Source: Octopus vulgaris (lineage: Eukaryota). From it: DNA of 64,000 nucleotides. Below are positions 27,570-53,650 of this stretch, piece by piece; within the stretch, counting starts at the first letter, position 1, and every line of letters starts with the position of its first letter. Under the pieces are notes generated by a model, which saw only the letters and a program-made list of their open reading frames with translations, was not told where the DNA came from and searched no databases. Position numbers and translations under genes: made by a program. The stretch spans positions 111,352,001-111,416,000 of the forward strand of contig OX597819.1 in NCBI GenBank assembly GCA_951406725.2. Direction: 5' to 3'.

Positions 27570-28082
27570 TTTTGTGTGGCTTTCTCACCTTGAATAATTG
27601 CTTCAATGCGCCTGGGAAGAGATGCCTACAAATCCTTCACCATCTTCATAGGAATGAAATGCCATTCTCTGTGGCTGATTTCCCACAACTCTTCAAGATT
27701 GCGAGGATTCTTCTGACGAACTGTTCTCTGTAGTTCTTTCCACATTTGCTCGATGATATATAAATCAGAGCTCTGAGCTGGCCAATCTATCAATGCGGTA
27801 ACGCTTTCATCAGCCAGACTCTGTTGTGTTGCACGCGATCTGTGGCATGGAGCTCCGACACGCTATAAAGAATCTCAGTTTCCTCCAAGACTGCTATCAA
27901 ATTGTCTTCCAGCAACTGAATGTATTTGGCACTATTCAAGTTGCCGTCAAGTTTAGCCAACTTTCATGAACCATCACTTTTTATGTAGTCCCAAAACATC
28001 ACTTTTACCCCCCAAACCTAACTGTTTTCGCCGTGCAACGTGGGTAATTTCGTTTTCCTGGAGGCCTTCTGACAAATTTTAA
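27570..28082 (-). pseudogene. Tc1-like transposase C-terminal fragment
   Basis: VRRPPGKRNYPRCTAKTVRFGG..GAPCHRSR..DWPAQSSDLYIIEQMWKELQR..NLEELW. Confidence 0.8.
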
Positions 28083-33263: not shown

Positions 33264-33480
33264 GATAGACGGGAGGAGAGAGTGAGTGAGAGAGAAAAAG
33301 AGGGAGTAATATATGTATGTGTAAGTGTTTTTACTCGTTTGTGTCTTGTATCAGTTTGTAATTGTGTATCATGCGTGTCATCAAAGAAAACATGAATATA
33401 CCAAGGCAGCTGTAAAACACATAAGCATGTCATTTGGAATAGTCTGTTGTATAGATATGCATACATACGAACGTATCTAC

Positions 33481-33517
<37 letters not shown>

Positions 33518-33769
33518 TTTAACAATTAAGGATAACTTCTTAATAAGGAATCTTAACAAGAAATTATCAGGTAGATAGCGTGAAAAACCTCATAAGAGAA
33601 AAATTTCGAAAATAATTCTTTCTTATTGAACATATTAATTTATATATAGAGGGCATTATTACACAAACATGCCACACGCTATGAGGGACATTAGTCATTT
33701 CTACCAAAAAATTTTACTAATCATACCCAATGCAATTTTTCCAAAGCTAGACATTTAAAAAATGAATTT

Positions 33770-33831
33770 AGTCTTGTATCACCTGTGATTTCGTACTTAT
33801 CGCAGTTTCGACCGTACTCATCAGCAAGACT
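33770..33831 (-). ncRNA. Canonical type I hammerhead ribozyme
   Basis: Exact reverse complement of 34185-34246. Confidence 0.88.
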
Positions 33832-34184
33832 GATTCTGAACATATCATAAATAAACGAACCTGTACCGTCAAAGCCGAACAGCTATCTGTTCAACCTTAA
33901 CGACGCACATGGGGAACTTTACATATAATACATCCGGTAAATGGCAGGCTTCTTCGAATTGCATTTCGGGTAGGAAAAGTTTTTTCGGAATAAAATTATT
34001 TAACAATTAAGGATAACTTCTTAATAAGGAATCTTAACAAGAAATTATCAGGTAGATAGCGTGAAAAACCTCATAAGAGAAAAATTTCGAAAATAATTCT
34101 TTCTTATTGAACATATTAAGGTTGAACAGATAACTGTTCGGCTTTGACGGTACAGGTTCGTTTATTTATGATATGTTCAGAATC

Positions 34185-34246
34185 AGTCTTGCTGATGAGT
34201 ACGGTCGAAACTGCGATAAGTACGAAATCACAGGTGATACAAGACT
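34185..34246 (+). ncRNA. Canonical type I hammerhead ribozyme
   Basis: AGUCUUG-CUGAUGA-GUAC[17-nt loop]GUAC-GAAA-UCAC ag GUGA-U-A-CAAGACU; 7-bp stem I; predicted cleavage after A34239. Confidence 0.9.
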
Positions 34247-34367
34247 AAATTCATTTTTTAAATGTCTAGCTTTGGAAAAATTGCATTGGGTATGATTAGT
34301 AAAATTTTTTGGTAGAAATGACTAATGTCCCTCTTAGCGTGTGGCATGTTTGTGTAATAATGCCCTC

Positions 34368-34400
<33 letters not shown>

Positions 34401-34420
34401 GTTATAAACATATAAATGCT

Positions 34421-34579
34421 TAGGTGTAGCTGTGTAGTAAGTAGGTTGCTTGCCACCCACATGGTTCCGTGTTCAGTTCCACTGCGTGTCAGCTCGGACG
34501 AGTGTCTTCTACTATAGCCTCGGGCCGACCAAACCTTCGTGTGTGGATTTGGTAGACGGAAACTGAAAGAAGTCCGTCG

Positions 34580-34652
<73 letters not shown>

Positions 34653-34783
34653 ATAGATAGATAGATAGATAGACAGACAGACAAACAGAGAGACACAAAG
34701 AATAGGTCCCGGGGTCGATTTGTTCGACAACTGGCGGTGCTCCAGCGTGACCGCAGTTAAATGACTGAAACAAGTAAAAGAAT
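34421..34783 (+). mobile_element. SINE family A (internally deleted)
   Basis: Head, core, compound microsatellite, tail. Confidence 0.85.
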
Positions 34784-35161
34784 GTATCTTTTGCGTGGGA
34801 GTAGATGTGTATTTGGACAGTGCCCATTATTGTAGGTAACCTTATACGCGGGCACTCAAACACTGATACACACGCGACTATATATCCTTTCTGACTTTTA
34901 TTTGTCTTAGTCATCAGACAGCGGCCATGCTGGGGCACCTCCTTGAAGAATTTTAGACCGCTAAGTTTTTGTTCTGCTTAAAATTGTTTATTCTTTTATT
35001 CTTTTATTCTTTTACTTGTTTCAGTCATTTGATTGCAGCCATGCTGGAGCACCGATACTTAAGGTTGTTAGTTCTAGTATTTGTTTGTGTTATAGGGTAA
35101 ATGCTGAGCTGGTTGAAATTAGATTGCACAGTATGAGCCCCGCTGAATATGTGACGTGTGT

Positions 35162-35960
35162 TAAGACAGCGTGTTGGCAGAAACGTTAGCACGCCGGGCG
35201 AAATGCTTAGCGGTATCTCGTCTACCGCTACGTTCTGAGTTCAAATTCCGCCGAGGTCGACTTTGCCTTTCATCCTTTTGGAGTCGATAAATAAAGTACC
35301 AGTTACGCACTGCGGTGGATTTAATCAGCTTAATCCGTCTGGCTGTCCTTGTTTGTCCTCTCTGTGTTTAGCCCCTTGTGGGTAGTAAAGAAATAGAGAT
35401 TTCCTCTGTCGCTACGTTCTGAGTTCAAATTCCGCCGAGGTCGACTTTGCCTTTCATCCTTTCAGGGTCGATTAATTAAGCACCAGTTACGTACTGGAGT
35501 CGATGTAATCGACTTAATACCTTTGTCTGTCCTTGTTTGTCCCCTCTATATTTAGCCCCTTGTGGGCAATAAAGAAATAAGAAACGTTAGCACGCAGGGC
35601 GAAATGCTTAGCTATATTTTATCTGCCACTACGTTCTGAGTTTAACTTCCGTCGAGGTCGACTTTGCCTTTCATCCTTTCGAGGTCGATTAAATAAGTAC
35701 CAGTTACGCACTGGGGTCGATATAATCGACTTAATCCCTTTGTCTGTCCTTGTTTGTCCCCTCTGTGTTTAGCCCCTTGTGGGTAGTAAAGAAATAGGTA
35801 TTTCGTGTGTCTTAACGTTCTGAGTTCAAATTATGGCGAGGTCGACTTTGCCTTTCATCCTTTCGGGGTCGATAAATTAAGTACCATTTGCACACTGGGG
35901 TTGATCTAATCGACTGGTCTCCTTCCCCAAAATTTCAAGCCTTGTGCCTAAAGTAGAACA
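35162..35960 (+). mobile_element. Meta-SINE-like family B tetramer
   Basis: Four tandem central domains; flanked by the 16-bp direct repeat GAATAT(G/T)TGACGTGTG (35145-35160, 35961-35976). Confidence 0.88.
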
Positions 35961-43929: not shown

Positions 43930-45440
43930 CACTGCGTGTCAAGTTATTAGGCACCTCTGTTTTTTCGAAAAAAAATAGTATTTATTCGTTCGGATCCAGA
44001 TATCTTTTCACTGAATGATGGCAACATCTGCCTGCACATACTGTAGTAAAATAACTTGGATCTACGCAGATGTAAACAAACAGCAGCCATTTTCGTGAAA
44101 CAGCAACGATTTTACCGTCCTAAATTATTACGGTAAGTGCCCAATAAAAGTGTGATTATGGGCCAAAAACTATCGTCTTAGAGCTTGGAAAGCAAAAACG
44201 ACCTTGGAAATACCAAAGGTCCTAGGAAGAGATAATCGACTTGTGATGAACTTTGTTTCCAGGCGCACCCTGTCACGTATAACGGAGGAAGTTTCGAAGA
44301 ATACGTGTCTGACTAGTCGAGAAGTATTTAAACGTTGTAGTAGGGACGGCATTTCGAAATCTACCAGGTGTCGTCTCTTGAAGCAGGTAGCCAAGAACGT
44401 AAAGCCCGTTACAAGGCTTCTTCTGAAGGCTATTCATAAACAAAATAGAGTCAAATGGGCAGAAGACTACATTAAGACAGATTTTTCAAAAGTCCTCTTT
44501 ACTGACGAATGCCGTGCTTCCCTAGACGGACCAGATGGGTGGAGTAACGGATGGATTGCAATTAGCGGAAATCGTCCTCATCGTTTGAGACGCCGACAAA
44601 GGTGAGGCGGTGTCATGATTTGGGCTGGCGTTTTTGGGGACAAGCTGGTTGATCCTTAGAAAGTTCCATACGGAATTAAGATGATAGCTAATGCCTATGT
44701 TGCCTTTTTGGAGGACAATTTTAAGCCATGGTTGAAGAAGCAGAAAGTTTCATTAAAGAGAACGATGGAATTCATGCAAGATAATGCGCCCTCCGATGCA
44801 GCTAAGAAACCCCTGGACTACCTACAGTAATTACACTTCTTTGGTCACTGTTTGGTGAAGTGGCCGGCGTGTTTAACCGACTTAAACCCGATTGAAAATC
44901 TATGGAGTGTTCAACAGAGGAAGATATATCAAGATGGACGGCAGTTTTCAGCGAAAGATGCGCTCTGGGAAGATGCTGCTGGCAATATTACATCAGAGGA
45001 AATAGTTACCTTGACAAATTCAAAGAATAAACGCGATAGGGACGTTATCTCATGTGGAGGATCATACATCCATCATTAAGAACTTTACGACGTATTATTT
45101 GTTGCATTATTTCCATTCAGATATATTATTATTATGTTCATTATAAAGTCCTTTATGATTACATTTATTGTTAAAATCTAAGTGTCGCCTTAAATAAATG
45201 TTTGTTTTTGCATAATTAGCATTTTAATTAGCCCTACCTAATAATTTAGGACAGTAAAAATGATGCCTATTAACAAAACTGGCCGTTGTTTCTTTACATA
45301 TGGATGAATCAGATTTCTTTTGGTACAATACAAGCAGAGGGGTGTTATTATCATGCAGTGAGAAAATATCTGGATTCGAACGAATAAATTCTCTGTTATT
45401 GTGGAAAAACCTGAGCTGCCTAATAATTTGACACGCAGTG
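43930..45440 (+). mobile_element. Tc1-like transposon with ~200-bp TIRs
   Basis: TA|CACTGCGTGTCAAGTTATTAGGCA ... TGCCTAATAATTTGACACGCAGTG|TA; both TIRs present. Confidence 0.93.
44158..45079 (+). pseudogene. Tc1 DDE transposase pseudogene
   Basis: VLFTDECR..DGPDG, FMQDNAPS, WPACLTDLNPIENLW; in-frame stops and a truncated N-terminus. Confidence 0.92.
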
Positions 45441-53505: not shown

Positions 53506-53650
53506 ATGATCGCTAAATCCACAAATTTTTTTATTCTCCCTGTTTGTTTTCTCTTATTCCTTTCTGCTGAAGAGCATAGGCTCGAAATGTAAAAGACTTC
53601 TTCACTTTCCCGAGTGACAAACTAATACACCTGCTTGTTGTTCATACACC
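53506..53650 (+). mobile_element. HHR unit family H2, third copy (HHR-like motif 53560-53595, core CUGCUGA)
   Basis: Colinear with 3318-3460; CUUU-CUGCUGA-A-GAGC auag GCUC-GAAA-UG-U-A-AAAG. Confidence 0.65.

What the first reader, a model, noticed from the sequence alone, without database searches (positions are those of the whole stretch)
33513..34378. Young 263-bp inverted duplication carrying two intact back-to-back hammerheads
Seen: layout (TA)n-A-B'-C-A-B-(TA)n, with A 126 bp (no differences seen) and B 263 bp with 2 mismatches. B contains a canonical HHR (7-bp stem I, GUAC/GUAC helix II, AUCA/UGAU helix III, AUA site). Transcription in either direction yields one sense HHR preceded by its perfect antisense. 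Known: inverted and partial-tandem pLTRs typify Penelope-like insertions, and coleoid cephalopods have extensive ADAR editing of dsRNA. Inference: a recent insertion whose fold-back could block self-cleavage and feed ADAR or siRNA pathways, which would matter if this window is intronic.
Basis: partly seen in the sequence, partly recalled or inferred. Interest (0 to 1): 0.85.

Follow-up and report, generated by a model that had tools for sequence, protein, structure and literature searches.

The report
Penelope-style inverted retrozyme insertion
The mirror-image pair of hammerhead ribozyme motifs is one ordinary copy of a large family of ~480-base non-coding tandem repeats, likely pasted into (TA)n runs by a Penelope-type retrotransposon enzyme, and most inverted copies end at one short and one long end-point, which likely reflects how that enzyme starts copying on both DNA strands.

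Summary
The native unit is a 481-nt tandem repeat, C'-B-A', with one type I hammerhead. The window holds 1.26 units on the minus strand plus an inverted, 5'-truncated piece joined at a 4-nt microhomology. The hammerhead pattern has 372 exact matches in G000 against 0 for the control. Helix I covaries across subfamilies 60-95% alike. Of 137 insertions, 68 are simple inversions, all head-to-head, and 20 of the 68 carry hammerhead cores on both strands. A lone hammerhead is predicted to misfold helix III; two tandem copies are predicted to form a double hammerhead. This locus has one per strand and is predicted to fold back, so it is likely inert. The more interesting result concerns the family: 50 of 54 classifiable inversions have one proximal and one distal 3' end, about 125 nt apart (p 2e-11). 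An autonomous Penelope-like family in the same genome follows the same rule in 5 of 6 cases. This points to retrozyme insertion by Penelope-type enzymes. Transcription, ADAR editing and the partner element were not shown.

The parts
33484..33512 (.). (TA)n target run, left
   Evidence: 33484-33513; 119 of 136 outer ends of inverted family insertions have (TA)4+ within 25 nt
33513..34119 (-). Native-orientation arm, 607 nt = 1.26 repeat units (A' C' B A'), 5'-truncated at unit position 356, ending at the distal (D) 3' end at 33513
33513..33993 (-). One full 481-nt monomer (C'-B-A'), 33% GC, strongly structured
   Evidence: MFE -132.7 kcal/mol, z -5.6, 0 of 100 shuffles fold as well
33513..33638 (-). 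Tail (block A), about 125 nt between the proximal and distal 3' ends
   Evidence: family ends cluster at unit positions 340-370 and 465-481
33770..33831 (-). Type I hammerhead, minus-strand copy; predicted cut 33777/33776
   Evidence: covariation
33901..33993 (-). Block C, 5' part of the monomer (unit positions 1-93); single in this insertion
33994..34119 (-). Tail of the upstream unit (second copy of A, identical to the first)
34116..34119 (.). Head-to-head junction, 4-nt microhomology TTAA shared by both arms
   Evidence: overlap of 2 nt or more at 24 of 38 junctions; no chance baseline computed
34116..34378 (+). Inverted arm (block B, unit positions 94-356), 5'-truncated, ending at the proximal (P) 3' end
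34185..34246 (+). Type I hammerhead, plus-strand copy, with near-palindromic helix III; predicted cut 34239/34240
34379..34400 (.). (TA)n target run, right
   Evidence: 34368-34400, overlapping the TA-rich end of the element

Best explanation
This is a 5'-truncated, head-to-head inverted copy of a ~480-nt hammerhead-bearing tandem repeat (a non-LTR retrozyme) sitting in a (TA)n run, likely inserted by a Penelope-like RT/GIY-YIG enzyme acting in trans and likely inert where it lies. Shown: the family, its 457-494-nt unit, covarying hammerhead helices, two fixed 3' ends (P at about 356, D at about 480), (TA)n flanks, head-to-head geometry, and one P plus one D end in nearly all inversions. Inferred mechanism: a multimeric transcript is bound by the enzyme, and both strands of the self-complementary (TA)n run are nicked. 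One nick primes reverse transcription at the D site and the other at the P site, both TA-rich. Both cDNAs stop early and their 5'-truncated ends are joined, often at a few shared bases. Here D gave 33513-34119 and P gave 34116-34378. Predicted: the ribozyme works as a double hammerhead between neighbouring units of tandem source copies and would release monomers. This locus has one hammerhead per strand and a 263-bp fold-back, so it would not cleave.
For: Family size: 2127 first-look candidates; 372 exact pattern hits against 0 control. Native tandem order at many loci; hammerhead spacings 457-494 at 9 loci. No extension into coding sequence was seen in the segment maps and flanks of the 135 + 30 loci mapped. 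Helix I lay outside the search pattern and pairs in 439 of 468 cells, against 27-49% when slid; 5 of its 6 pairs change on both sides. Geometry: 68 of 68 simple inversions are head-to-head. 50 of 54 classifiable ones are P+D: 26 of 28 among loci picked by the hammerhead pattern and 24 of 26 among those picked by similarity. Non-inverted copies end at P 38 times and D 28 times, so about half mixed is expected. A third set picked on the D end has P opposite in 11 of 11 classifiable cases. An autonomous RT+GIY-YIG family ends in (TA)n, has a 33-nt tail and is P+D in 5 of 6. Selection: inherited variants avoid the catalytic core (1 of 688 vs 652 of 19590), while private changes in an older subfamily hit core and body equally (5 of 255 vs 141 of 7188). 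So selection acts on source copies, not on insertions. Folding: the two-copy MFE leaves both cores free in 10 of 12 hammerhead variants, and inter-copy helix III has P 0.35-1.0 in 8 natural tandems. Literature: PAc cleaves and extends both strands and has two RT start sites that define the tail (PMC11167929).
Against: No autonomous partner was found: the family profile hit no PLE terminus in 47 GIY-YIG loci (only 150 of 6136 candidates were scored). A 62-69% blastn match to one PLE family's 3' end (E 6e-5 to 1e-3) is AT-rich, out of register and not confirmed by the profile. The 125-nt tail is far longer than the 30-40 nt described for PLEs (PMC8557442). In PAc in vitro the start site did not differ between strands and was not homologous to the target, whereas both ends here are TA-rich. 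14 of 68 inversions had one end at neither site and were left out of the 54. 2 complex insertions were left out. The window's own locus is counted, and L116/L135-L137 look like duplicates of one event. Whether both arms come from one RNA molecule was not resolved (informative sites 14 vs 22). All folding is nearest-neighbour prediction without tertiary contacts or Mg2+. No cleavage or expression data.
Confidence: 0.8

Rival explanations
1. One reading: this locus matters in itself as a transcribed 263-bp hairpin that silences its ribozyme and feeds ADAR or small-RNA pathways.
For: Fold-back is predicted to be dominant in both directions and already in nascent prefixes. Extensive ADAR editing in coleoids is recalled; one search gave a search listing only.
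Against: At least 16 of 68 sampled inverted insertions make equal or longer hairpins. Private changes are not depleted in the core of inserted copies of an older subfamily. The two arm differences are private changes, one per arm. No host exon was recognised: 78 of 102 candidate frames were scanned with Pfam and gave only 3 transposase remnants; this is a weak test for short exons.
Confidence: 0.07
2. The inversion arises by fold-back or self-priming of a single cDNA or antisense template (Arkhipova 2013 model), not by two primings at the target.
For: PMC3846280 proposes this for head-to-head PLE repeats with junction palindromes. Mirror junctions are enriched: 11 of 50 within 16 nt against a permutation mean of 3.8, p 7e-4.
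Against: 39 of 50 junctions are not mirror images, including this one (356 vs 94). Simple fold-back does not by itself explain why the two outer ends are different fixed sites in 50 of 54 cases. Mirror junctions are also expected if both cDNAs run to the same 5' end of one RNA.
Confidence: 0.15
3. LINE-1-type twin priming on one linear RNA, in which the two arms copy adjacent, non-overlapping parts (model recalled, Ostertag and Kazazian).
For: At this locus the long arm starts at unit position 356, exactly where the inverted arm ends.
Against: Only 8 of 54 inversions abut within 15 nt; about 7 are expected from window width alone (2 x 31/481). Arms usually overlap in sequence.
Confidence: 0.08
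4. The copies are truncated 3' ends (pLTRs) of an undiscovered coding PLE rather than an independent retrozyme.
For: Same insertion anatomy as PLEs. Most PLE copies are 5'-truncated. The search for GIY-YIG loci was partial.
Against: Upstream of one unit lies another unit, up to about 2.6 units in a row (1239 nt). No coding extension was seen in the loci mapped.
Confidence: 0.1
5. Assembly artefact (fold-back chimera or mis-joined repeat).
For: No public contig spans the insertion, and no long reads were available.
Against: Each arm carries its own private change. The arms end at two different biological end sites. The same grammar recurs at dozens of loci on many contigs.
Confidence: 0.02

Closest known systems
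Metazoan non-LTR retrozymes (Cervera and de la Pena 2020, PMC7229834; Li, Clavereau and Pollet 2026, 10.64898/2026.07.22.740005)
   Same: Non-coding, low-GC short tandem repeat with one type I hammerhead per unit. Dispersed monomers and dimers. Predicted dimer-dependent cleavage as in axolotl retrozymes. Proposed to be non-autonomous PLE derivatives.
   Different: The unit of 457-494 nt is above the 150-450 range of the 2020 paper but within the 51-972 of the 2026 one. The passages I read do not describe inverted insertions, a tail or two fixed 3' ends; the word 'inverted' does not occur in the 2020 main text. This locus has one hammerhead per strand, so it is not 'active' by the 2026 definition.
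Endonuclease-bearing Penelope-like element insertions (Arkhipova 2013, PMC3846280; Craig 2021, PMC8557442)
   Same: Partial tandem plus an inverted 5'-truncated copy, head-to-head. Tail present at only one end. Microsatellite targets. Microhomology junctions.
   Different: No ORF in cis. Tail about 125 nt rather than 30-40. The one-end-only rule is described qualitatively there and is counted here (50 of 54).
PAc Poseidon element in vitro (Frangieh 2024, PMC11167929)
   Same: Two internal RT start sites delimit the tail. Both target strands are cleaved and extended. A protein dimer is predicted.
   Different: PAc starts in an AC-rich loop not homologous to the target and showed no strand difference. 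Here both ends are TA-rich next to (TA)n, and the two sites are paired one per strand.
Opposite-strand hammerhead pairs in Schistosoma PLE remnants (Cervera and de la Pena 2014, PMC4209133)
   Same: Two hammerheads 100-700 bp apart on opposite strands; palindromic helix III acting as a dimer.
   Different: Those are minimal hammerheads of coding PLE pLTRs. This one has a 4-5-bp helix III and an extended helix II.
Non-autonomous Chlamys elements such as MRC1 (PMC8557442)
   Same: Non-autonomous PLE-type elements with pLTRs and multicopy head-to-tail insertions.
   Different: They generally share 3' sequence with autonomous families, and most Chlamys lack canonical hammerheads. No such sharing was found here.

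Membership tests
Non-LTR retrozyme | Type I hammerhead with conserved core in each unit | tested here: met
Non-LTR retrozyme | Short head-to-tail tandem repeat (family level) | tested here: met
   spacings 457-494 nt at 9 loci, up to about 2.6 units
Non-LTR retrozyme | At least two consecutive hammerhead units at the locus ('active' in the 2026 preprint) | tested here: not met
   this locus has 1.26 units and one hammerhead per strand; met at other loci such as L009, L020, L180
Non-LTR retrozyme | Low GC, no coding frame | tested here: met
   33% GC; no coding extension seen in the loci mapped
Non-LTR retrozyme | Absence of PBS and PPT motifs | not tested
   not searched
Non-LTR retrozyme | Target-site duplication | tested here: inconclusive
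   flanks are (TA)n, so a duplication cannot be read
Non-LTR retrozyme | Self-cleavage; linear and circular monomer RNAs | not testable with these tools
   no RNA holder on record and contigs only
Penelope-like element insertion | Partial tandem with an inverted 5'-truncated copy, head-to-head | tested here: met
   68 of 68 simple inversions
Penelope-like element insertion | Optional tail, present at one end | tested here: met
   50 of 54, 11 of 11; tail about 125 nt rather than 30-40
Penelope-like element insertion | Microsatellite target bias | tested here: met
   119 of 136 ends
Autonomous Penelope-like element | RT plus GIY-YIG ORF in cis | tested here: not met
   866-nt insertion bounded by (TA)n; no such ORF among the window frames scanned
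Non-autonomous derivative of a named PLE family | Sequence shared with an autonomous pLTR | tested here: inconclusive
   no profile hit in PLE termini of 47 loci; weak AT-rich blastn match; GIY-YIG search partial
LINE-1-type twin-priming inversion | Arms copy adjacent, non-overlapping parts of one RNA (recalled) | tested here: not met
   8 of 54 abut, about chance; this locus itself does abut

The most novel reading that the evidence does not exclude
Penelope-type enzymes integrate by coupled, asymmetric double priming: one active site starts at the proximal and the other at the distal site of the same bound RNA, one on each target strand. This retrozyme superfamily, with a ~125-nt tail and a dimer-only hammerhead, rides that machinery in trans and records the mechanism in hundreds of insertions. 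That would be direct integration-scar evidence that animal retrozymes are PLE passengers.
Probability: 0.45. Interest if true: 0.65.

Novelty: new member of a known kind. Interest (0 to 1): 0.4.

Why it matters
The single locus matters little: it is one of many likely inert insertions. The family is useful. How retrozymes integrate and how PLEs build their tandem and inverted ends are both stated as open. Evidence for PLE mobilisation of retrozymes in the 2026 preprint is co-occurrence and pLTR homology. Here the insertion scars themselves follow PLE grammar, with a countable rule (one proximal plus one distal end) shared with an autonomous family in the same genome. That rule can be tested in the existing PAc-type in vitro assay. 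The inversions also seed the genome with 98-99% matched hairpins of several hundred bases, which would be ADAR or small-RNA substrates wherever they are transcribed.

Tried and rejected
Rfam: no hit at gathering score, only weak hammerhead hits. Partner search: blastn and a profile HMM against 47 GIY-YIG loci found no shared terminus. The family copies inside L038/L063, L070 and L077 are separate insertions near PLEs. The 3' part shared with a more abundant element led to an older 496-nt-type retrozyme subfamily, not a coding element. Single circular template: not resolved; tandem units within a locus differ by a median 2.1% and arms by 1.4%, neither clearly below the nearest other locus, and informative sites were few. 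5' ends at the hammerhead cut: 3 of 249 mapped starts at 217-218, with a mild pile-up at 221-240 partly caused by an internal inverted repeat; not claimed. A-to-G footprint of editing in private changes: none (15 A>G vs 30 T>C). Sequencing runs: no RNA holder listed. 4 of 24 runs were laid, all short contigs; none spans the insertion. A 33332-34429 joint in two runs has a 23-nt side and unknown filling, so presence or absence of the insertion is undecided. Host gene: 78 of 102 candidate frames gave only transposase remnants; intronic status unknown. The first both-strand core count returned 0 because of a spacing error in my pattern and was redone. The tail conservation figure was biased by how loci were chosen and was redone. 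Earlier-findings look-ups by place and by sequence were empty.

Full report
Observation. Block A is an identical 126-nt direct repeat at 33513-33638 and 33994-34119. The inverted arms 33638-33900 and 34116-34378 are 263 nt with two mismatches and lie 215 nt apart. (TA)n runs flank the whole. A hammerhead core pattern matches at 34192-34239 (+) and 33777-33824 (-), plus one unrelated place, against 0.03 matches expected. Rfam does not recognise the motif at gathering score and gives only weak hammerhead hits.

It is one copy of a large family. A search of G000 with 33900-34378 gave 2127 first-look candidates, 40 scored. The matches break at the A/B joint because the native order is different: the unit is C'-B-A', 481 nt, in head-to-tail repeats. 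The window's minus strand 34119-33513 reads A' C' B A' (1.26 units). The plus-strand piece 34116-34378 is a second, 5'-truncated copy pointing the other way, and the two share TTAA at 34116-34119. A pattern for the core plus helix III has 372 exact matches in the genome and 0 for the reversed control (only the first 100 places were listed). Those loci fall into several subfamilies about 60-95% alike to the window unit, with hammerhead spacings of 457-494 nt at 9 tandem loci. No extension into coding sequence was seen in the segment maps and flanks of 135 loci plus 30 of an older subfamily. The unit is 33% GC and folds far better than shuffles (z -5.6).

The ribozyme motif is real at family level. 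Helix I was not part of the search pattern, yet it pairs in 439 of 468 cells over 78 distinct hammerheads, against 27-49% when slid. On a 10-sequence alignment 5 of its 6 pairs change on both sides, 94% of cells pair and slid controls give 25-43% (related sequences inflate the shuffle test, and helix III was fixed by the pattern). Among loci picked by overall similarity, the catalytic core differs from the majority at 1 of 688 positions against 652 of 19590 in the body. Private changes in an older subfamily hit core and body equally, 5 of 255 against 141 of 7188. Selection therefore acts on the copies that propagate, not on inserted copies.

It is predicted to work as a dimer. Alone, the motif folds with the core paired into the 5' strand of helix III, and helix III pairs have probability about 0.03. 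Helix III is a near-palindrome. The minimum-energy structure of two copies is the double hammerhead (-40.8 against 2 x -16.5 kcal/mol); both cores are free in 10 of 12 variants, and inter-copy helix III has probability 0.35-1.0 in 8 natural tandems. This matches the dimer model in PMC4209133 (passages) and the axolotl retrozymes in PMC7229834 (abstract and passages). These are nearest-neighbour predictions only. The window locus has one hammerhead per strand, and the whole insertion folds into the 263-bp duplex with all hammerhead pairs at 0.00 in both directions, also in nascent prefixes.

The locus is not unusual. Among 137 insertions in 135 loci (the window's own included), 67 are one-directional, 68 are simple inversions and 2 are complex. 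All 68 are head-to-head, so antisense-before-sense is a geometric consequence whenever both arms reach the ribozyme. That happens in 20 of 68. 16 of 68 have arms of 263 nt or more, and the window ties for 7th of 24 in arm similarity. Each arm carries one private change, which argues against an assembly fold-back and for a fairly recent insertion. Opposite-strand hammerhead pairs 100-700 bp apart are already reported for PLE remnants.

The family-level rule. Copies end at two fixed places: P at about unit position 356 and D at about 480, separated by block A, which is thus a tail of about 125 nt. 119 of 136 outer ends of inversions lie at (TA)n. One-directional copies end at P 38 times, D 28 times and elsewhere once. 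Of 68 inversions, 14 had one end at neither site and were set aside. Of the other 54, 50 have one P and one D end, 2 are PP and 2 DD (binomial p 2e-11 against one half); among loci picked by hammerhead pattern alone it is 26 of 28. A third set picked on the D end has P opposite in 11 of 11 classifiable cases, 2 set aside. The genome holds intact 781-aa RT plus GIY-YIG frames with a CX4CxxC linker (Neptune/Nematis-type by the motif quoted, no tree built). That family ends in (TA)n, has a 33-nt tail, and is P+D in 5 of 6 classifiable inversions; 9 two-orientation loci were found among 59 examined, many chosen on the D end and some overlapping. PMC8557442 (passages) and PMC3846280 (passages) describe a tail at only one end of inverted PLE insertions. 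PMC11167929 (parts 1-2 of 4) shows that the tail lies between two internal RT start sites and that both target strands are cut and extended.

Mechanism. The simplest reading is that a PLE enzyme nicks both strands of the self-complementary (TA)n run, primes one cDNA at D and the other at P, and the truncated 5' ends are joined, with 2 or more shared bases at 24 of 38 junctions (no chance baseline). These steps are inferred. LINE-type twin priming (recalled) predicts abutting arms. This locus abuts, but only 8 of 54 do, about chance. Fold-back self-priming predicts mirror junctions. These are enriched, 11 of 50 against 3.8 by permutation, but 39 of 50 are not mirrors, and one RNA copied twice to the same 5' end would give the same signal. 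Whether one or two RNA molecules serve as template was not resolved.

Against and open. The partner was not identified: no PLE terminus among 47 GIY-YIG loci matched the family profile, and that search scored 150 of 6136 candidates. The tail is three to four times the described length. Public runs of three organisms hold the family, but none is on record as RNA and the 4 runs laid were short contigs that do not span the locus. Expression, editing, polymorphism and the local assembly were therefore not tested directly. No host exon was recognised in 78 of 102 candidate frames, which does not exclude a long intron.

Novelty. The element fits non-LTR retrozymes, which the 2026 preprint (parts 1-3 of 5) derives from PLEs by co-occurrence and pLTR homology. 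My searches listed no paper describing this family or counting the one-P-one-D rule. Repbase and the papers' supplements were not seen and may hold cephalopod families. One earlier AI note on a shark genome reached a similar view of palindromic PLE stumps; it is not independent evidence. Verdict: observation confirmed, locus ordinary, family a new member of a known kind with a useful mechanistic signature.

Noticed in passing
L061, L062 and related loci (G000:C16:20834500-20841500, C16:33681000-33688000): Young autonomous Penelope-like family with many intact 781-aa RT+GIY-YIG frames, (TA)n targets, a 33-nt tail and a minimal hammerhead with the U3-A8 core variant (a variant reported in PMC4209133). 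An upstream 330-480-aa frame has no Pfam hit in the one copy scanned (L061).
   Followed up: partly
window 53555-53605 (+): Hammerhead-like motif of another repeat: a GAGC/GCUC stem followed by GAAA; it reads as a minimal hammerhead with one core change in one register. Probably a decayed PLE-type end; my reading by eye.
   Followed up: no
window 44156-45076 (+) and 27629-27862 (-): Tc1/mariner-type transposase remnants (Pfam HTH_Tnp_Tc3_2 and DDE_3, below curated cut-offs).
   Followed up: no
window 34420-34580, 34700-34790: Very high-copy short repeats right of the insertion (summed contig depth in the millions); SINE-like by my recall.
   Followed up: no
window 35215-35796: Degenerate tandem of a 184-217-nt repeat, 87-90% alike.
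   Followed up: no
L074 (G000:C14:47993000-48000000): Another PLE family with a 766-bp inverted repeat whose arms are 100% identical: a very young inverted insertion.
   Followed up: no
L116, L135, L136, L137 (G000:C1): Near-identical inverted retrozyme insertions with the same junction, three of them within 190 kb; likely segmental duplicates of one event.
   Followed up: no
L152 (G000:C2:139460900-139464000): Two retrozyme insertions of different subfamilies side by side in one (TA)n-rich site.
   Followed up: no
window 33333-34428: A weak joint skipping this stretch at single-copy depth in runs X1 and X3 (23-nt side, filling unknown); could be an empty allele or a repeat mismatch.
   Followed up: no
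L191-L219 vs window unit: Other subfamilies carry about 38 extra bases between the distal end and the next unit, which the window's subfamily lacks; some have the AUC triplet instead of AUA.
   Followed up: partly
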